From Camelus dromedarius (lineage: Eukaryota): a stretch of 64,000 bases of DNA. Location: contig NC_087436.1 in NCBI RefSeq assembly GCF_036321535.1, positions 50,532,001-50,596,000 of the forward strand, read 5' to 3'. Of this stretch, positions 52,501 to 64,000 are shown in pieces (position 1 is the first letter of the stretch; every line of letters begins with the position of its first letter). Under the pieces are notes generated by a model. That model did no database searches, was not told the origin of the DNA, and saw nothing but the letters and a program-made list of their open reading frames with translations. The translations under genes and the position numbers were made by a program.

Positions 52501-55500
52501 AGGGTTTAAAAGTTATTTTTCAAATAAATTGAACCCAATCTTAGAAAGGATGATTAACAATTAGATTAACTGTTTACCAACACTGGCTCTTTCTTTAGTA
52601 AATTTTATGTAATCTGATTAAATAATCTAACCATGTATATAATTTAAATTGACCCAATAACTGGAAGGTGTTTTGTTTAACTCACTAAAAATTTCCTAGA
52701 TTTGCTCTGTAATTTGGAATTGGAAAGAAACATAACTAATCTCCAGAGAGAACTGAATAAAGAAGTTGAAGAAAATGAAGCTTTGCGTAAAGAAGTTACT
52801 TTGCTCTCAGAATTGAAATCTGTACCCTCAGAAGTAGAAATGCTAAGGAAAGAGGTAAACACATTTTTAAGCAAACAACATTATTTTGAAATAAAAACCT
52901 TTGCAATAGTGCCTTAAATGTTTTGCCATATTTTATTTGAAAGGACCAGGAAAGAGACTGTAAATGTTTGACTCAGTTTGTTAGCAATATAAGTCAAATT
53001 CTAAGGAAAATCATAAAATGCCTACCATACCAGAAAGTTAGAAAATACTTTAAAATGATAGATAAGGAAATAAAGACACCTCCTGATTGTGTTTCTATTG
53101 GATGTCCTTCTCCATGCAATCCTTTTAGAACCAGAGGCTGGAAAACAGAACTTTGAAGATAAAGTTAAACAGGGTAATATATTGTTACCAACAATTACAG
53201 TATTGCCTTTTCTCAGTCAAACCTTTGCTTAGTTTCAATGTCTTTTTTCTTTTTTGGCAAAGTAAGTTGTTTTTTTTTCCCTGAAAGCTAAGTAGATCAT
53301 ATACTGCTAACATAGCTAAGTTTTCTTTCTTTTCCATAGCTACATGATAAATCTGAAGAACTCTGTATAATAACATCAGAAAAAGACAAATTGTTTTCTG
53401 AAGTTGTTCATAAGGAAAGTAGAATTCAAGATTTACTTAAAGAAATTGGGAAAACTGAAAATAACCTGGCAACTTCCCAGTTGAATTATGAAAGCACTGA
53501 CCAAGAATTCCAGGATTTTAAAAATCATGATACTGGGTTTGAGCAAAAGTATAAGATGGTCCTTGAGGAGAATGCAAGACTGAATCAAGAAATAGGAAAT
53601 CTCTCTAAAGAAGCTCAAGAACTTGGTTTAAGTTTGGGTGATTTGAAGACAGAGGTTGGTAAAGACATCTTCTAGGGAAAGGATCTTTAGTCTTCTGGGG
53701 TTTGGCTTCCATATATACAATGTAGAATATTCTGCTTTTCACATTGACTCTTTCTTATCTTACAGCTGTCTCACAAAACCCAAGAACTTGAGAAGAAAAC
53801 AACTGAGCATCAAGAAAGGTTAAAGGAAGTGGAAGAGCTGAAGGAACAATTAGAAAGTAGAGATTCTAGGCTGCACACTGTAGAAAAGGAGAAAACACTG
53901 ATTACTGAGAAACTTCAACAAGCCTTAGTGGAAGTAAAAACCTTAACCCAAGAAAAGGATGACCAAAAACAACTCCAAGAGAGCCTGCGAATCGAGAGGG
54001 ACCAACTGAGAAGTGACATTCAGGATACTGTAAATATGGTAAGATTTTGACTGTTTAAACTTTGAAAACTCAGAGCCTCTTTAAAAACATTACAGGAGCC
54101 ATCATTTATTATGTATGATCAAGCAATAACTATAAAGTTAGTCTCATTGTTTCACATTCTAATGGAAATTATTTTGTTTCTCTGACGAAGAACATAGACA
54201 CCCAGGAACAATTACGAAATGCTCTTGAGTCTTTGAAACAACACCAAGAAACAATTAACACACTAAAGATGAAAATTTCTGAGGAAACTACTAAGAATTT
54301 GCATACAGAGGAAAACTTAGGGGAAACTAAGGATGAATTTCTGGAAAAGGTAAAGGGTGTTCCTATTCAGGTTTTCATATACTTGTATGTGAGCTTTCTT
54401 AACTTAACCTCAAACACTTGAATACAGATAGGTAATCTCTGTCTAATTTATTATTCACTGTGGTAATAACTCAGAATACTTTACAAGCTTAATCCTGATG
54501 TCTTTTAGATAACTTCAACTATAACTGCTTATTATCAATTTGAAAAAGAAAAGACAAAAAATACTAGTTCAAACTTTGAGCTGATATTTTTCTGAGGCCT
54601 GATGTAATTTATACATTTTTAAAAGCACCTCTGAATTCTAAGAATATAAGAAAGATTGAGTGCTTATTATTAATAATGGCTAAAATAATTTGTTTTATAT
54701 CAGATTTTGTGTACTATACTTGTTTAGAGTTTGCTAGAGATTCGATGTGTGTGTCGTGCTTGTGCCTCTTTCTAGCGTTTGGGCCATAATTTTACTATTA
54801 GGTGCTTAAATCTTACCATAATTCATTCTAGGTAGTGTGGTTCATTTTGTCTTGAGACCTTAACTGGTTATTTAATTATATACAAGGAGAGCTAGATGCT
54901 AACGGTAATTTTTTTTAAGTGGGGATGTATTTATCTGCTAGGGCTTCCATAACAAAATATAACAGACTGCTTGTAAGCTATTTGTATATCTTCTTTAAAT
55001 AAAGTGGTAGAGTTCAGGTGGCAGAAATTCCTGTTCAAGTTTTTACTCATTTCTAAATTGGGTTGGTTTTCTTGTTAAGTTGTAAAAGTTCTTTATATTT
55101 TTCTGGATATTAACCCTTTATCAGTAGTATGATTTGCAAATATTTTCTTGCGTTCCATAGGTTGCCTTTTCACTCTGTTGATTGTGTCCTTTGATGCACA
55201 GAAGTTTTTTATTTTGATATAGTCTAAATTAGCTTCTTTTTTCTCATTTACCATGGCACACAATATTCCTGCCTTGGAAAAGCAGCCTTGTTTTCTTTCT
55301 TCCTGTGCTTGAACCCTTCTGTCCTAGAAAAGCATTTTCACTTCCTCTGTTATCTTGTATTCTCAGCCTGTCTATAATTTGAATCAACCATGGGCCAAAA
55401 GTACTTGACCTTGATTTGAAACTTGTAACTTCCACATTCATAAGGGGAAGATTTTTTTGACAGATCTTTTAAAATAAAATACAACAATTTATAGCTGCTT

Positions 55501-58500: not shown

Positions 58501-61500
58501 GTTTTTAAGTTTAGGGACAGTATAATGTGTATAGATTGAAATTAGTATTTTGAGAAGTTTGCTGTGGATCTCAGTAGAACCTGACCTTTTGTATAATTTT
58601 CCATGTTTATTGGGATTGTTTTCTATTTGATCAAAATTGCTGAATGTAAATAAGAATACAGACAAAAGTCATAATGTCTTCTCAGTCTCTGGCATGTAAT
58701 ATTTTTGTGGTCTTGATACTTGAGAATGTCACTGTTTAAGCTTAACAACTAGAAATACCCCACCTCATGCTAGCAAAAGATGCTGCCATTTTGAGCTTAC
58801 TATTAATCAGTAGACAAAACCAAAGCCATTCCAGCATATGAAAAGCTCATAACCATATATATACAGAGAGAGAGAAAAAGAGAGTCACCTTCAGTCAACA
58901 AAAGCTTAGAAAGTCTGTTTTGTCTTAGGGGTAGAAAATGAGCAAACCCCTCATGATAGAATGCTGAATCCAGTTCTAATTCTTCTGATAGGAATGTAAG
59001 GTGAGCAATAAAGAAACAGCATAAAAAAGCAGATTCCTGGCATTTACACAGTTAAATTAAAGACTCTTTTTTTAAGTAGTGTTTTCCAATATAGCTTGCC
59101 ATGAGTTCCTTTTCAGGCTGAAGTAAATGCTTATTTTTACCTGATTTCATAAATGTAAGCTAGTATTATTCATTTTAATCTCAACTTTTTAAAAATTCTA
59201 GACCATTGAAAACCAAGAAGAATTAAGAATTCTTGGAGATGAACTTAAAAAGCAACAAGAGAGAGTTACACAAGAAAAGAACCATGCCATAAAGAAAGAA
59301 GAAGAGCTTTTTAGGACGTGTGAGAAACTGGCAGAAGTTGAAGAAAAGCTAAAGGAAAAGGTGACTTTTTAAAGTTATCTTCTTGGTCATTTTTCCTGAC
59401 TTAACTTTGTGTGGGGGTGGAGCTGGGGGAGGTTTACAGATTTGACTCCAGTAGATGTGAATTCCAGAAATAACACATACCTCTCAAATGAACAGATCTT
59501 AATGCTAATAGTTGGAACAACTTCAACTCCTACTGAGATGTTAACTAACATCCTTTGTGAAGATTATATTATTCTAATCTTTACGTGAGAGACAGAGCCT
59601 TCATTCATCTGAACTAATCATTTGATATATTCATTCAAGTTTATATTGAGCACTGCCATGGGCCAGGCATTGTTCTGGGCTCTTGAGATACGTTAGTCAA
59701 CAAAACAAAGAGCCTGCTCTTATAGAAATATATCAGTCATTCTCTAAAATGTAAGATTTATCACTACAGTCAGCCCTCCATATCTGCAGTTTCTGCATCT
59801 GTGGATTCAATCAACCACAGATCAAAAATATTCAGAGGAAAAAAAAATTCGTAAAGTTCCAAAAGTGAAACTTGAATTTGCCAAGCACCAGCAACTATTT
59901 ACATAACATTTACATAGTATTTACAACTATTTACGTAGTATTTGCATTGTATCCGGTATTACAAGTAATCTAGAGATGAGTTAGAGTATAAGGGAGGGTG
60001 TTTGTAGTTTATACGCCAATACAGTGTCATTTTCTATTAAGGACTTGAGCATCCTCAGATTTTGGTATCCACAGGGGTCCTGGACTCAATCCCCTGTGGA
60101 TACCAAAGGGTTATTGTATTACCATCTCTTAGATGTTTGCAGTAAGGGCTGTTGTAATATTTGTAGAAGAGCTAAGACTCTTGTAACAATTGTACTTCCC
60201 AAGTAATTCTAAAATGCACCCATTGTGATCTTTCTGTATATTCTAGGAGCAGTGCCACATGCATTATAGGTGATACATTGCAATTTCCATTGTGCTTCTG
60301 TATTTTTTTCCTAACATGTATTCTCTTAATTCTCATCCCTTTTACTATAACTTAACTGAATATAGTAAAACCTTATGTCTATTTCATATTCCTCCTAAAG
60401 AAGTGAAATCAATAAGCTTACGTAGAAGTTAATGCCTCGTTGTTTCTTTGAGCCACCCCGTATGGACCTTATTGGAAATGGAAATAAATTTTCCAAATTT
60501 TTAAGAGAAAAAGAATTACAGTTATTTGGCAGCTATATCTGTATATTTAATTCATCTCTTTCCTTTTTTGATTTTTCTCACTTTCACTTTACCTCCTTGA
60601 TTAACCTAGTGGGACTATCTTAGTTTCCTAAGGTTTCTGTATCAAATTACCATAAACTTGACGGCTTAAAACAACAGAAATTTATTCTTTCACAGTCCTG
60701 GATCCTAGAAGTCCAAAATCAAGGTGTTGGCAGAACCGAGCTCCCCCTGCAGGCTCTAGGGAAGAATCCTTTCTTGCCTCTTGCTGTCCTTGACTCCCTG
60801 CTGTCCTTGGTGGCCCTTCGCTAATAACTGCATCTCTCCAGTCTCTGCCTCCATCTTCATATGACTTTCTCTGTGTCTCTCTGTCCTTTTCTGTCTCTTA
60901 TAAGGATGGTCTCATTGGATTTAGGCCCCACCTTAGTCCAAGAATACTCCTTCTCAAACCTTAACTTATTACATCTGCAAAAATCCTGTTTTCAAAAAGG
61001 TTACATTCTGAGGGTCTGGGTAGACATGAATTTGGGGTAGGACCCAATATAGACACTATGCCTAGAAAGTTACTTTACATTTAATGCTACTTATTTGTTT
61101 ATATTGGGGTGTAGACAGGGCTATGATGATGATTATTTCAGTTCCACAAATACATTTTACACAAGAATTTTAAGAGAGTATAGACAAAATGCTAATTATA
61201 AAAACTATTCCTTAAGAACCAACAACTCCAAGAAAAACAGCAGCAACTTCTTAGTGTACGAGAAGAAATGAGTGAGATGCAGAAAAAGATGAGTGAAGTG
61301 GAAAATTTAAAGAACGAATTAAAGAACCAAGAATTATCATTGGAATGTATAAAAATTGAGAAGCTAGAGTTGGCTCAGCAACTTCATGAAAATTATGAGG
61401 AAATGAAATTCATAACCAAGGAAAGAGACAATCTAAAGGAATTACAGGAGTCATTTGAAACAGAGAGAAGTAAACTTAAAGGATACATAAGAGAAATTGA

Positions 61501-62976
61501 AGTTACAGTAAGTCATACCCTTTTCTTTCATCTATTAAATGTTTTCTTAAAATCTGAGTCAATTGAAAAAGGGTAGGCAATGTTGGGATGATGTTATTAT
61601 AATTATTTTTTAAATTTCACTTGCTAATAAAGGGTCTAGAAACAAGAGAAGAACTAAAAATGGCCCACATGCATCTAAAAGAGCACCAAGAAACTATTGA
61701 AGAACTAAGAAGAAACATTTCTGAGAAGACAGCTCAAATAATAAGTATTCAAAAGAACTTAGAAAAAGCAAATACTGAATTACAAGAAAAGGTTTGTATT
61801 TTCTTCCTTCCCTCCTTGTCCCTTCTTCCTTTCTTTCTCCTTGAAGGAATGATAAGCATTAGACAGTGACTGAGTTATTTATTGTATAGTAGTTGTTGAG
61901 TGTCTAACATGGGAGATACAGTCCTGGGTTATAGAAATAAAATGGGAACAAGGTGGACAAAATCTCTGTGATCACAGAACTTACTTTGCAGTGGAAAGAA
62001 GTAATCAATGAATAAGCAGTCAAATGAACAAGATAATTTGAGATAATGGCAAATGCCATGGAGAAAATGAAGCACTGGGGTAACCGGACCAACCTGTGTT
62101 AAAAGCCTACTATGTGCCAGGCATTGAGACTGTGGCTATGAATAAGACATTGTTCTTTTTCCCCAATATAGGCATATAAAAAATCCCTCAATTCCAGTAT
62201 GATAAATGTAGAAATATGATATGCAAAGTTAGATGGTACCACTAGTGGTCATGGGAAAGGGGGATCAATCTGTACCCATAAAAAATATATGAAGTAACAT
62301 TAGCATTCATCTGAGAATGGGGGCCATTCATTTATTGGGATATAATCTGCTCAACTCTGAAATTTCTCCTGCATTTGGGAACTAGTATAGAAATAAAGTA
62401 TGCAACTGACTGGATTAATAATTTGTTGGTAAATGTAAGGATTAGTTCACTTTGGATATAAGCTGGAGAAAAAGAAAATTATGACAGAATGTGACTAGCA
62501 GAAAAGTCATGAATAGCTTTAGTAGGAATCAAGTGAAAATGAATAAATAGGAATTTGTACTCCATGGTAGACCGTGAGGGTTCAAGGTCACTTTCATTGC
62601 TATGGAAAGTAGTCTCACCTTTTCCCTTTAAAAAATTATGATAACACTCTATATAGTAACCTTGGTATTTTATGAATATCACAAGATCCCAGTGCTTCAT
62701 GAGGAACAGGAGCTACTTCCTAATGTGAAAGAAGTCAGTGATACTCAGGAAACAGTGGATCAACTGGAGCTATTGAAAGGACAGTCCAAAGCCAAGGACT
62801 CAGCAACACTGGCAGATATAGAAATGGAAAGGCTCAGGTTGACTGAGAACCTTCAAGACAGTCTTGAAGAAATAAAATCTCTAACTAAGGAAAGAGACAA
62901 CCTTAAAATGACAAACGAAGCACTTCAAGTTGAACGTGACGAGCTAAAAGAAGAGATTAAAGAAACTTTGGCTAAA
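25228..62976 (+). CDS. CENPE: Centromere protein E (kinesin-7), coding exons 1-29; partial, continues beyond the window
   Basis: 29 GT-AG exons splice into one open frame of 4134 nt starting [19 protein letters not shown]; kinesin P-loop GQTASGKT, switch I NQRSSRSH, switch II DLAGSE, then RRVTW and a long coiled coil. Confidence 0.98.
26124..26302 (+). mobile_element. Short L1 3' end in intron 1
   Basis: L1 3'UTR; diverged TSD aagaaactattac / aagaaaccattgc. Confidence 0.75.
26965..27056 (+). CDS. CENPE: CENPE exon 2
   Basis: ttttag| [30 protein letters not shown] |gtaagt. Confidence 0.95.
27476..27565 (-). mobile_element. tRNA-Ala-derived SINE (Vic-1 type)
   Basis: Reverse complement gives a tRNA-like head (tggtagagcatatgcttagcatgtatgaggtcctgggttcaatccc) with an A/AT tail. 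Confidence 0.8.
27919..28120 (-). mobile_element. MIR
   Basis: tgtgccagacactgttctaagcactt...gaggaactgaagcaga...gtcacacagc. Confidence 0.7.
28900..29075 (-). mobile_element. MIR
   Basis: ccattttacagattaagtcactgaggcacagaga...ccaaagtcacacaacttgtaagtggcagaaccaggatt. Confidence 0.75.
29302..29391 (+). CDS. CENPE: CENPE exon 3
   Basis: tttag| [30 protein letters not shown] |gtgtgt. Confidence 0.95.
29508..29626 (+). CDS. CENPE: CENPE exon 4 (P-loop)
   Basis: tgcag| [40 protein letters not shown] |gtaaat. Confidence 0.97.
30260..30638 (+). mobile_element. L1 3' end in intron 4
   Basis: cacttatatgtggaacct...gtacagcataggg-like motif, A-rich tail, diverged TSD-like flanks. Confidence 0.8.
30753..30872 (+). 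CDS. CENPE: CENPE exon 5
   Basis: tctag| [40 protein letters not shown] |gtgagt. Confidence 0.96.
31313..31394 (+). CDS. CENPE: CENPE exon 6
   Basis: ttcag| [27 protein letters not shown] |gtaaga. Confidence 0.95.
31409..31484. repeat. (TTTC)19 microsatellite, tail of the adjacent SINE
   Basis: Read directly from the sequence. Confidence 0.95.
31485..31600 (-). mobile_element. tRNA-Ala-derived SINE (Vic-1 type)
   Basis: tggaggtactggggattgaac...catgctgggcatacactctatcactgagcta; same family as 46262. Confidence 0.8.
31750..31817 (+). CDS. CENPE: CENPE exon 7 (switch I)
   Basis: tacag| [23 protein letters not shown] |gtaggt. Confidence 0.96.
31895..31960 (+). CDS. CENPE: CENPE exon 8
   Basis: tctag| [22 protein letters not shown] |gtgagt; follows a 77-nt intron. 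Confidence 0.95.
32659..32712. repeat. Perfect 27-bp tandem duplication
   Basis: TATGATTTAAGATTACTCTATTTGATT x2. Confidence 0.95.
34135..34915 (+). mobile_element. L2 3' portion
   Basis: tagaatataagctctctgagggcagggacc...ttcactcctgtattcctagcacctaacatactgcctggaacata. Confidence 0.8.
35494..35545 (+). CDS. CENPE: CENPE exon 9 (switch II)
   Basis: tacag| [17 protein letters not shown] |gtaatg. Confidence 0.97.
35790..36680 (+). mobile_element. Old L1ME-like fragments with an MLT1-like LTR end (about 36110-36250)
   Basis: ggggtacaaaattaatataca; atatagccatacaatgaaattct; gaaataaatgcttattgttttaa...gttacagcaatagat. Confidence 0.6.
36054..36097. repeat. Perfect 22-bp tandem duplication
   Basis: TAGATGGGAAGGTACAAAATCA x2. 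Confidence 0.95.
37082..37169 (+). CDS. CENPE: CENPE exon 10
   Basis: tgcag| [30 protein letters not shown] |gtaagt. Confidence 0.96.
37508..37637 (+). CDS. CENPE: CENPE exon 11
   Basis: ctcag| [43 protein letters not shown] |gtaagt. Confidence 0.97.
38578..38697 (+). CDS. CENPE: CENPE exon 12 (end of motor, neck)
   Basis: cccag| [40 protein letters not shown] |gtatgt. Confidence 0.96.
39575..39733 (+). CDS. CENPE: CENPE exon 13
   Basis: tgtag| [53 protein letters not shown] |gtaaga. Confidence 0.95.
39960..40425 (-). mobile_element. L1 ORF2 fragment in intron 13
   Basis: Minus-strand ORF 40110..40316 contains [11 protein letters not shown], an L1 ORF2p-like motif. Confidence 0.85.
40685..40915 (+). 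mobile_element. MIR
   Basis: tgaccttaggcaatttct...cagtttccttatctg...agggttgttgtgagaattaagtga. Confidence 0.7.
41000..41900 (-). mobile_element. L2 fragments
   Basis: Purine-rich antisense L2 motifs (ttagaattgcattttagaaagg; aggtctgaagtggagatatcagtttggg). Confidence 0.6.
43675..43819 (+). CDS. CENPE: CENPE exon 14 (Aurora T422 / PP1 RVTW motif)
   Basis: tttag| [48 protein letters not shown] |gtgagt. Confidence 0.95.
44493..44581 (+). CDS. CENPE: CENPE exon 15
   Basis: tatag| [30 protein letters not shown] |gtaact. Confidence 0.93.
45912..46079 (+). CDS. CENPE: CENPE exon 16
   Basis: aatag| [56 protein letters not shown] |gtaaaa. Confidence 0.94.
46262..46414 (+). mobile_element. tRNA-Ala-derived SINE (Vic-1 type) with 16-bp TSD
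   Basis: A box TAGCTCAGTGG, B-box-like GGTTCTATCCC, A-rich tail; TSD AAAAATAGTTAAATCA at 46246-61 and 46415-30. Confidence 0.9.
48790..49056. mobile_element. MER33-like hAT-Charlie element
   Basis: cacatgtggcaattgagcacttcaaatg...tattgattacatg...tttggatatattaggttaaataaa...ggctcacattatatttctatt. Confidence 0.75.
49463..49499. repeat. (AT)18 microsatellite
   Basis: Read directly from the sequence. Confidence 0.95.
50067..50141 (+). CDS. CENPE: CENPE exon 17 (75 nt, phase 0-0)
   Basis: tacag| [25 protein letters not shown] |gtgagc. Confidence 0.93.
50362..50481 (+). CDS. CENPE: CENPE exon 18
   Basis: tttag| [40 protein letters not shown] |gtaaaa. Confidence 0.93.
51950..52072 (+). CDS. CENPE: CENPE exon 19
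   Basis: tatag| [41 protein letters not shown] |gtaaat. Confidence 0.94.
52157..52322 (+). CDS. CENPE: CENPE exon 20
   Basis: aatag| [55 protein letters not shown] |gtattt. Confidence 0.94.
52700..52854 (+). CDS. CENPE: CENPE exon 21
   Basis: cctag| [52 protein letters not shown] |gtaaac. Confidence 0.94.
53340..53654 (+). CDS. CENPE: CENPE exon 22
   Basis: catag| [30 protein letters not shown]...SLGDLKTE |gttggt; overlaps ORF 53391..53675. Confidence 0.92.
53766..54038 (+). CDS. CENPE: CENPE exon 23 (long exon of stalk module 1)
   Basis: tacag| [11 protein letters not shown]...[15 protein letters not shown] |gtaaga. Confidence 0.93.
54191..54349 (+). CDS. CENPE: CENPE exon 24 (159-nt exon, module 1)
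   Basis: cgaag| [53 protein letters not shown] |gtaaag. Confidence 0.9.
54975..55240 (-). mobile_element. L1 fragment, preceded by a short MLT-like stub at 54926-54970
   Basis: ctggatattaaccctttatcag...tttgcaaatattttct...tttgatgcacagaagtttt. Confidence 0.8.
56990..57215 (+). mobile_element. MIR
   Basis: tcagtttcctcatctgtccaatggagataataataacctacctcataaggtt. Confidence 0.8.
57209..57285. repeat. 37-bp direct duplication (period 40) just upstream of exon 25
   Basis: TTTTATTATTAAAATTATTAACTAAAAAATTCTTTAA at 57209-45 and 57249-85. Confidence 0.95.
57310..57513 (+). CDS. CENPE: CENPE exon 25 (long exon, module 2)
   Basis: tttag| [13 protein letters not shown]...[15 protein letters not shown] |gtagga. 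Confidence 0.93.
57565..58320 (-). mobile_element. Old L1M 3' end in intron 25
   Basis: ccattttacattcccatcagcaa...ttttaatttgcctttccctaatgactaaagatattgagcatct. Confidence 0.8.
59202..59360 (+). CDS. CENPE: CENPE exon 26 (159-nt exon, module 2)
   Basis: tctag| [53 protein letters not shown] |gtgact. Confidence 0.93.
59767..60116. mobile_element. MER2-like TcMar-Tigger MITE
   Basis: TA flanks on both sides; diverged TIRs CAGTCAGCCCTCCATATC...GATACCAAAGGGTTATTG. Confidence 0.8.
60616..61060 (-). mobile_element. MLT1 (MaLR) LTR
   Basis: ggcttaaaacaacagaaatttattctttcacagtcctgga...ttacatctgcaaaaatcctgttttcaaaaaggttacattctgagg. Confidence 0.85.
61217..61507 (+). CDS. CENPE: CENPE exon 27 (291-nt exon, module 3)
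   Basis: ttaag| [24 protein letters not shown]...[10 protein letters not shown] |gtaagt. Confidence 0.9.
61633..61791 (+). CDS. CENPE: CENPE exon 28 (159-nt exon, module 3)
   Basis: taaag| [53 protein letters not shown] |gtttgt. Confidence 0.9.
62686..62976 (+). CDS. CENPE: CENPE exon 29 (291-nt exon, module 4)
   Basis: acaag| [21 protein letters not shown]...[15 protein letters not shown] |gtaagt. Confidence 0.9.
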
Positions 62977-63099
62977 GTAAGTTTCATCCTTTCCTCCCAT
63001 TAAATAAGTGTTTTATAAATATCAAGTCTTTGGGAAAGGGGGCATTTGTAGTTATAATGTTATTACCAATTTTCTTTAAGCATCTCTTAAATTATTAAG

Positions 63100-63226
63100 T
63101 GACTGAAAACAGAAATAACTAAAAATTGCTCATAAATAATAAGAAACTATTGAAACAGAGGAAATGTGTCAGGGAAGAGACTATTCCAAATGATTTAGAA
63201 AAAGCCGTGCCAAATTACAGGAAAGG
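63100..63226 (+). pseudogene. Degenerate pseudo-exon, paralogue of CENPE exon 28 (lost 159-nt exon of module 4)
   Basis: Colinear blocks shared with exon 28 (AACTAAAAAT, AAGAAACTATTGAA, TTAGAAAAAGC, AATTACARGAAARG); about 32 nt shorter, begins with TGA, donor position reads AT instead of GT. Confidence 0.8.
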
Positions 63227-63299
63227 ATAAAGCCAAAAATGCTATTTTCTTTCCTTCTTTAAACCTGTTTCTCCAGCATTTCATGAGGTATTACTATCT

Positions 63300-64000
63300 T
63301 CCTCATTGATCCAGTCAGAAATCCAGAATCATCCCTACTACTGTCCCTTCCACCCTACTCACTCTGTAATCCAAGTACCAAACCTTGTTGATTTTAAGGG
63401 AGGTGTGTATATGTGTGTAAAATCCTTCCACTCTTCTCTCCACATAGCTGATGGCCTAATCCAAGCCATGATTATTTCTTTCCCTGAATTTCTGCATTAG
63501 CCACCTATCTGGTCTCCCCATTCATTTCATACTTCTCTAATTCATTCTCCAAACTGAGCCCAAGGGATCTTTTCTTCTTAAAACCCTTTAATAGCTTATT
63601 GTTACTCTTGAAATAAAGACCAGCATCCTTCACACAGTCTATGAGACCCTGGATCCCAGACCCTGCTGATCTCTAGCCCTATTTCATCTCACTCTTTCTC
63701 CTGCTCATTGTGCTTCAACAGCTCTAGTCTATTGCTCTTTCTCACCTCATGGCTTCCAGATATTCTAGTCTTCCTTGTTGTATTTCTATACCCCTCTTTG
63801 CCTAACTAGTGCTCACAGCCTTCAGATCTCAACTGAAGCTTTCCTTCCCCCAGAAAGCCCTTCCTAACCACTCACAGTAAGTTAGATTTGCCACTGGTAC
63901 CCTGAAAGAACCCAGCTCCTCTGTTTGGTAAGATTTGGTATAATATCTGTCTTTTCCCCTAAAGTATGTAAGTCTCAAAAAAACAGATCATGTAAAGTCT
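63300..64000 (+). mobile_element. L2 fragments
   Basis: ccaagccatgattatttcttt...cttaaaaccctttaatagctt...gccttcagatctcaactg...cagaaagcccttcctaacc. Confidence 0.6.

What the first reader, a model, noticed from the sequence alone, without database searches (positions are those of the whole stretch)
62977..63226. Fossil CENPE exon: a dead copy of the 159-nt stalk exon, with its intron, after exon 29
Seen: the 123 nt after the exon 29 donor (gtaagtttcatcctttcc...gaaagggggcattt...atgttatt...attaag) parallel the 125-nt intron 27 (gtaagtcatacccttttc...gaaaaagggtaggcaat...atgttatt...ataaag). Colinear blocks of exon 28 follow: AACTAAAAATTGCTCAT (63117) vs AACTAAAAATGGCCCAC (61652); AAGAAACTATTGAA (63141 vs 61688, exact); TTAGAAAAAGC (63195 vs 61759, exact); AATTACAGGAAAGG|AT vs AATTACAAGAAAAG|GT. 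The copy starts with TGA, is about 32 nt short and has lost its GT. Inference: the exon 27-intron-exon 28 unit was duplicated and the new 159-nt exon later died, shortening the stalk by 53 aa. As I recall, human CENP-E also lacks such a 53-aa block after ...ETLAK, which would make the loss ancient; this needs checking.
Basis: partly seen in the sequence, partly recalled or inferred. Interest (0 to 1): 0.8.

Follow-up and report, generated by a model that had tools for sequence, protein, structure and literature searches.

The report
Fossil exon in CENP-E stalk
An intron of the camel gene for the chromosome-moving motor CENP-E holds the broken remains of a short stalk exon that likely died before humans and camels parted; it is one of several stalk building blocks that different mammal groups appear to have dropped.

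Summary
62977-63226 is a decayed copy of a short intron plus a 159-nt stalk exon of camel CENPE (score 476; 0 of 1000 shuffles reach it). It has five deletions totalling 32 nt, begins with TGA and has AT where the donor GT should be. It is not a one-off duplication. The stalk is an array of eight 97-aa long exons alternating with 53-aa short exons, all phase 0, and this is the short exon of unit 2. None of 155 placental proteins carries it, human included. A carnivore-like genomic ORF shows the same remnant with a matching lesion, so it likely died before Boreoeutheria split. Afrotheria and Xenarthra were not sampled. Marsupials give no one-to-one counterpart, because their array expanded or homogenised separately. 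Other modules are missing in other lineages, and exon 39 here has lost both splice dinucleotides with its frame intact. The RNA test gave no junction coverage. The scan had no earlier CENPE finding; it noted a similar fossil-exon stalk in a ray selectin. Verdict: a known kind of thing (degenerate tandem-duplicated exon) in a gene where my searches found no report of it.

The parts
62977..63099 (+). Short intron segment (123 nt) from the exon 29 donor to the fossil's acceptor AG; paralogue of intron 27
   Evidence: 85 of 121 aligned bases identical to intron 27; score 209, 0 of 1000 shuffles
63100..63226 (+). Fossil short (S-type) stalk exon, 127 nt: starts TGA, five deletions totalling 32 nt, further stops
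   Evidence: 95 of 122 aligned bases identical to exon 28; profile hit E=1.3e-11; translations
63227..63228 (+). Position of the lost donor (AT instead of GT)
63288..63293 (+). Nearest donor-like GT downstream (GAG/gtatta, like the living exon 37 donor); would give a 188-nt, stop-containing, frame-shifting exon; no sign of use
   Evidence: one RNA-library contig runs unbroken across it
61217..61507 (+). Exon 27, long (L) module, 291 nt, phase 0
61508..61632 (+). Intron 27, 125 nt
61633..61791 (+). Exon 28, living short (S) module, 159 nt, phase 0
   Evidence: present in nearly all placental models
62686..62976 (+). Exon 29, long (L) module, 291 nt, phase 0; joined to exon 30 (beyond the window, L002:4233-4523) in the protein models
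   Evidence: peptide 100% identical to Camelus CENP-E models

Best explanation
The segment is a broken short exon of the repeated long-plus-short exon array that encodes the CENP-E stalk, likely dead and skipped since before the boreoeutherian split. Shown: the array (eight ~291-nt and six ~159-nt open-frame exons plus this fossil), phase-0 boundaries throughout, the lesions, and absence of the 53-aa block from all 155 placental proteins examined. Inferred mechanism: tandem duplication of whole exon-intron units (probably unequal crossing-over) built the array on the placental stem. A splice-site mutation, probably the donor, made the spliceosome join exon 29 to exon 30. Because every module is phase 0 the frame was kept and the stalk only lost 53 of about 1700 residues (about 3%), which was tolerated. 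The skipped exon then collected frameshifts and stops. It has no present function. The same route has probably removed other modules later in separate lineages, with exon 39 of camelids as a young example.
For: Homology far above chance. Exon map and phases. 0 of 155 placental proteins have more than 4 extra residues at the 29|30 boundary; 147 of the 155 contain exon 29. Five unnamed Logan proteins that span many exons on 3.8-11 kb contigs, so probably spliced transcripts (bat-, human-, pig-, rabbit- and rodent-like): four join 29 to 30, the fifth joins 29 to 31, and its short module is exon 31, not the fossil's orthologue. P0223, a genomic ORF 79% identical to felid exon 29, reads through the intron (19 of the first 24 residues match the camel intron translation; score 97 against shuffles 23 +/- 3, max 40, and 39 or less for six other introns) into a remnant ending LKIAHK plus one residue and a stop, where camel has LKIAHK-stop: a matching deletion and stop, read from peptide only. 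22 of 29 marsupial proteins have no internal long-long junction, so alternation is the default pattern.
Against: No direct RNA proof: 4 runs gave 0, 3, 0 and 3 records and no joint of any kind. Most of the 155 proteins are gene models and many are isoforms of the same species. A model can lack a module that the species still uses: pig model P0325 lacks exon 29, while the 99.6% identical P0058 has it. No afrotherian or xenarthran protein was retrieved, so no species with the exon alive has been seen. Fossil-side substitutions by codon position (8/4/7, n=19) cannot show how long it was coding. No human or other euarchontoglire DNA was seen, so the date before the boreoeutherian split rests on protein absence and parsimony.
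Confidence: 0.85

Rival explanations
1. Fossil exon, but it died more than once: alive in the boreoeutherian ancestor and lost separately in Laurasiatheria and Euarchontoglires.
For: Other modules show repeated loss: exon 33 is absent from all 25 primate, 1 colugo, 2 tree shrew and 2 lagomorph models and also from 2 hippo and 2 ruminant models, and is only partial or absent in carnivore models, yet present in camelids, bats, horse and pig. The shared lesion is shown only for camel and a carnivore-like ORF.
Against: Absent from all 155 proteins in both clades, and far more decayed than exon 39 or exon 33 in the same genome. One loss is simpler.
Confidence: 0.08
2. Poison exon: the acceptor at 63098-63099 is still used with the GT at 63288, giving a stop-containing exon that sends part of the CENPE mRNA to nonsense-mediated decay.
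For: The AG is intact, the first codon is an in-frame TGA, and the GT at 63288 has the same six intronic bases as the living exon 37 donor.
Against: The carnivore-like ORF P0223 has R where camel's AAG acceptor codon reads K, which suggests that AG is not conserved (inferred from peptide). The one RNA contig over 63198-63348 is unspliced (depth 2.7, weak). The decay looks random.
Confidence: 0.04
3. Dead on arrival: the duplication that made unit 2 left its short exon unusable from the start, so no ancestor's protein ever held this block.
For: No species with it alive was found. Its divergence from exon 28 (JC 0.26) against intron 27 versus 29 (JC 0.38) is compatible with neutral drift for most of its life.
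Against: Homology covers the whole upstream intron, the exon and sequence past the old donor, so both splice sites were copied and the exon would have been spliced at birth.
Confidence: 0.02
4. Chance match of AT-rich sequence or a transposon fragment.
For: The region is AT-rich (GC 0.35-0.38). No repeat library was available to screen it.
Against: 0 of 1000 shuffles and no unrelated tile of 836 come near; the position is exactly the empty slot of the array; a genome search with the stretch returned only itself (low sensitivity).
Confidence: 0.01

Closest known systems
Degenerate (pseudo) exons from tandem exon duplication: Exonize 'intronic matches' (PMC12343006, passages read) and unannotated tandem duplicates (PMC9013439, passages read)
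   Same: Intronic sequence homologous to a neighbouring exon of the same gene and strand, unannotated and disabled.
   Different: It is a lost slot of a multi-unit coiled-coil array, not a lone copy. Neither main text mentions CENP; CENPE was not found in the supplements searched for PMC12343006 and PMC8373072.
CENP-E (kinesin-7) stalk: flexible 230-nm discontinuous coiled coil in Xenopus (PMC2364708, passages read); 'Bonsai' deletion of 1475 of about 1700 aa breaks function (PMC4116301, passages read)
   Same: The fossil and its living paralogues encode segments of this stalk.
   Different: The passages I saw treat the stalk as one long rod; 'repeat' does not occur in the first paper and 'evolution' and 'conserved' do not occur in the second. 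The natural losses here remove 3-9% of the stalk, not 85%.
Mutually exclusive exons from tandem duplication (PMC8373072; search listing and supplement search only)
   Same: Origin by tandem duplication of an exon.
   Different: The copy has no open frame and no donor, and the living paralogues are included together, not as alternatives.
Adaptive evolution of mammalian CENP-E (PMC11230421, passages read)
   Same: CENP-E evolves fast in mammals (dN/dS 0.51 in its table).
   Different: It reports amino-acid sites in the kinetochore-binding domain; the word 'exon' does not occur in its main text.

Membership tests
Degenerate tandem-duplicated exon (pseudo-exon) | Significant homology to an exon of the same gene, same strand | tested here: met
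Degenerate tandem-duplicated exon (pseudo-exon) | Lies in what is intron in the gene's products | tested here: met
   15 of 15 camelid models join exon 29 to 30 with no insertion
Degenerate tandem-duplicated exon (pseudo-exon) | Coding frame or splice sites disabled | tested here: met
   TGA first codon, five deletions, donor AT
Degenerate tandem-duplicated exon (pseudo-exon) | Not included in mature RNA | tested here: inconclusive
   one search had no junction coverage; transcript-like proteins of other mammals lack it
Degenerate tandem-duplicated exon (pseudo-exon) | Not a transposon or low-complexity match | tested here: inconclusive
   composition controls passed and one genome hit, but no repeat library could be searched
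Mutually exclusive exon pair | Both copies keep an open frame and both splice sites | tested here: not met
Poison (NMD-triggering) exon | Usable acceptor and donor, conserved across species | tested here: inconclusive
   AG present, homologous donor lost, a donor-like GT at 63288; acceptor looks altered in P0223, read from peptide only
Poison (NMD-triggering) exon | Inclusion rises when nonsense-mediated decay is blocked | not testable with these tools
   needs an experiment or perturbation RNA-seq

The most novel reading that the evidence does not exclude
The CENP-E stalk is a birth-and-death exon array with a preferred length. Placental ancestors over-expanded it (about 1140 aa with the fossil alive), and camelids, primates, bats and ruminants each trimmed it back to about 935 aa by dropping a different long and a different short exon. 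Array lengths: camel 938, human 934, Rhinolophus 932, Pteropus 936, sheep 934; modules missing: 39+40, 33+36, 37+40, 29+33. Marsupials built their own array of 4-12 long units. The fossil would be the first cut in selection on tether length. Against: other models range from 854 to 1089 aa, any long+short loss gives about 939 by arithmetic, and exon 40 looks alternatively spliced.
Probability: 0.2. Interest if true: 0.65.

Novelty: new member of a known kind. Interest (0 to 1): 0.35.

Why it matters
The fossil alone changes little: degenerate duplicated exons are common. What it points to is more useful. The stalk of an essential mitotic motor is built from in-frame exon modules that expanded or homogenised separately in marsupials and placentals and that seem to have been shed one at a time. 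This gives a natural series of small stalk deletions, where the published test removed 85% (PMC4116301). It names modules that look dispensable in some lineage (29.5, 33, 36, 37, 39) and ones present in nearly every model (27, 31, 32, 34), which can guide construct design. Shared lesions in the fossil could also serve as markers for the root of the placental tree if Afrotheria or Xenarthra differ. It also warns that CENPE gene models force or drop modules (P0015, P0325).

Tried and rejected
RNA: 24 runs listed; 4 were laid on the end of exon 29 to the start of exon 30. X3 and X21 gave 0 records, X8 gave 3 intronic 151-nt contigs, X24 gave 3 reads; no joint was listed. This is no test of skipping or inclusion. 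The exon 38-41 junctions were not examined with RNA. Outgroup DNA: two metagenome scans with exon 29 relatives found no locus. Afrotheria and Xenarthra: none among the proteins listed (6; 120 of 700; 150 of 180; 120 of 791), nor among 30 proteins looked up by name. Marsupials as positional outgroup: rejected for units 2-5 (AU p 0.001, 0.010, 2e-6, 2e-5), not for unit 1 (p 0.34) (one opossum-like protein, 38 rows, quick tree; pairs set by position but tested after I had seen the tree). My own interim idea that exon 27 cannot be the sister of exon 29 (note) failed the AU test (p 0.49) and was dropped, so the register of the repeat unit is open. The short-exon protein tree was the quick tree, the careful one did not finish. 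Exon 29 'loss' in pig: rejected as a model or isoform effect; the same absence in 2 ruminant and 5 bear models is therefore uncertain. No further fossil long or short module was found in 90 kb. No structure was predicted. Literature searches that found no report of this exon or of the array: 0 papers each; listings only, none on topic by title and abstract. Subscription journals, bioRxiv supplements and whole-genome-alignment annotations were not visible and could hold it; the supplements of PMC9013439 were not searched.

Full report
Setting. The window lies on contig C1 of a 2.3-Gb genome and holds the first part of CENPE on the + strand, from the start codon near 25.2 kb. The exon 29 peptide is identical to Camelus models and 99% identical to alpaca models, so the source is a camel. 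Exon 28-like sequence is found only at this locus (5 matches, all within it).

Observation. The four block pairs quoted are where stated. The alignment of 61508-61830 with 62977-63270 scores 476 against 153 +/- 23 for 1000 dinucleotide shuffles, none reaching it; intron and exon parts pass separately (209 and 262, 0 of 1000 each); among 836 tiles the best one away from exons 27-28 scores 227. The copy is a 123-nt intron segment ending in AG and a 127-nt exon remnant with deletions of 2, 12, 4, 13 and 1 nt, TGA as first codon and AT at the donor position.

What it belongs to. Reading past the window shows an array: long exons of 282-291 nt (27, 29, 30, 32, 34, 36, 38, 40) alternate with short exons of 153-159 nt (28, 31, 33, 35, 37, 39). 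All begin and end between codons. The one place among 27-40 where two long exons follow each other, 29 and 30, is where the fossil sits. A profile of five living short exons finds it at E=1.3e-11 and finds no other hidden module in 90 kb. The fossil is 70-77% identical to every short exon, most to exon 28, and its intron is closest to intron 27 (219, next 161). Which unit was the parent is not resolved: free trees put exon 29 beside exon 32, but exon 27+29 (AU p 0.49) and 29+30 (p 0.12) are not rejected, and the DNA tree of short exons has no supported fork.

Is it dead, and since when? I aligned all 155 placental CENP-E proteins of over 1000 aa that I held to a model containing every module (three shorter placental fragments, P0128, P0145 and P0198, were left out). 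None has more than 4 extra residues at the 29|30 boundary; 147 contain exon 29. They cover camelids, whales, hippo, pig, ruminants, horse, bats, carnivores, primates including human (P0072), colugo, tree shrew, lagomorphs and one rodent-like protein; many are isoforms of one species. Five unnamed Logan proteins run across many exons on contigs of 3.8-11 kb and so are probably spliced transcripts; four join 29 to 30 and the rodent-like one joins 29 to 31. P0223, a genomic ORF closest to felid exon 29 (79%), continues through the intron, matching the camel intron translation at 19 of the first 24 residues (score 97; shuffles 23 +/- 3, max 40 of 1000), and ends in a remnant of the same exon that stops within two residues of where camel's does, after the same shortened motif. 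That points to a shared deletion and stop in the camel-carnivore ancestor; it is read from peptide, not DNA. The bat-like ORF P0006 also tracks the camel intron up to the exon start. One loss before Boreoeutheria split is the simplest reading. The direct RNA test was empty: of 4 runs, two gave nothing, one gave three unspliced intronic contigs at depth 2-3 (one spanning 63198-63348), one gave three reads, and no joint was listed.

Outgroups. No afrotherian or xenarthran protein surfaced (name look-ups), so the exon has not been seen alive anywhere. Marsupials have the same two modules, with 4 to 12 long units per model, and 22 of 29 proteins have no internal long-long junction. But their units group with each other, not by position with placental units, and positional orthology is rejected for units 2-5 of an opossum-like protein. 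The two arrays therefore expanded separately, or the marsupial one was homogenised later; these data cannot tell which. Platypus, reptiles and amphibians have weaker matches to the long module in other arrangements.

How it most likely happened. Shown: modular array, phase 0 throughout, the lesions, the absence from proteins. Inferred: unit duplication by unequal crossing-over (established mechanism for tandem arrays, recalled), then a splice-site mutation, skipping in frame, and neutral decay. The cost is 53 of about 1700 stalk residues; the stalk is a flexible 230-nm coiled coil in Xenopus (PMC2364708, passages) whose 85% deletion breaks function (PMC4116301, passages). At 0.15 nm per residue (recalled) 53 aa is about 8 nm. 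Substitutions on the fossil's side fall 8/4/7 on the three codon positions (n=19), too few to say how long it was coding.

The process seems to recur. By lineage: exon 33 is full length in 0 of 25 primate, 0 of 25 feliform, 0 of 2 hippo and 0 of 2 ruminant models but 15 of 15 camelid and 27 of 27 bat models; exon 36 in 0 of 25 primate and 0 of 1 colugo; exon 37 in 0 of 27 bat; exon 39 in 1 of 15 camelid. In this genome exon 39 keeps an open frame but has AC at the acceptor and AT at the donor, a likely young fossil; the one model that includes it (P0015) reads oddly at the junction and looks forced. These absences are from models, and the pig case (P0325 lacks exon 29, P0058 has it) shows that models can mislead.

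Prior knowledge. Degenerate duplicated exons in introns are a described, common class (PMC12343006 and PMC9013439, passages). My searches found no paper on this exon or on the CENP-E exon array, CENPE was not in two supplements searched, and a study of mammalian kinetochore evolution covers CENP-E sites but not exons (PMC11230421, passages). Unseen journals, supplements and alignment-based annotations may hold it. The scan's own index has no CENPE finding; it lists an unchecked parallel in a ray selectin stalk.

Verdict. Real, a new member of a known kind. Confidence in 'dead short exon of the array, lost once before Boreoeutheria split' is 0.85. Interest 0.35: the fossil is ordinary, while the birth-and-death history of an essential motor's stalk is testable and was not found in print.

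Noticed in passing
L002:9705-9863 (exon 39): Short module with an intact 53-codon frame but AC at the acceptor and AT at the donor. 14 of 15 camelid models lack it in full while whales, horse and human keep it. Likely a second, much younger fossil; not checked with RNA or other individuals.
   Followed up: partly
L002:5465-5617 (exon 33): Short module that is open and has normal splice sites but is strongly diverged (51 aa, long branch). Absent from all primate, colugo, tree shrew, lagomorph, hippo and ruminant models and partial or absent in carnivores: repeated loss or erosion. The human gene should hold its fossil.
   Followed up: partly
L002:7013-7294 (exon 36): Long module absent from 25 of 25 primate models and the colugo model but present in tree shrew and lagomorphs: a candidate shared loss of primates and colugos.
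   Followed up: partly
L002:7954-8112 (exon 37): Short module absent from 27 of 27 bat models and from the bat-like Logan protein P0003.
   Followed up: partly
L003:1-333 (exon 40): Skipped in most camelid models; alpaca model P0034 includes it through an acceptor 42 nt upstream. It appears variably included across mammals.
   Followed up: no
proteins P0126, P0296-P0322: Marsupial CENP-E models carry 4-12 long units that resemble each other within the protein; lengths 2258-3401 aa. Some of the spread may be assembly collapse.
   Followed up: partly
L002:4233-4523 (exon 30 orthologues): Exon 30 is truncated in bear, musteloid and pinniped models, absent in the rodent-like P0276, and extended by 4 residues through an upstream acceptor in some carnivore models.
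   Followed up: no
window 53766-54349 and 59202-59360: Exons 23-24 form an older long+short pair with a platypus counterpart; exon 26 is also 159 nt but matches the short profile only weakly (E 0.41).
   Followed up: partly
window 60061-60107: A perfect 17-nt inverted repeat with 13 nt between the arms in intron 26; probably part of a common small repeat element, not tested.
   Followed up: no
proteins P0145, P0191, P0198: Short 'CENP-E-like' models in mole (Talpa) and wood mouse (Apodemus), possibly partial extra copies or broken annotations.
   Followed up: no
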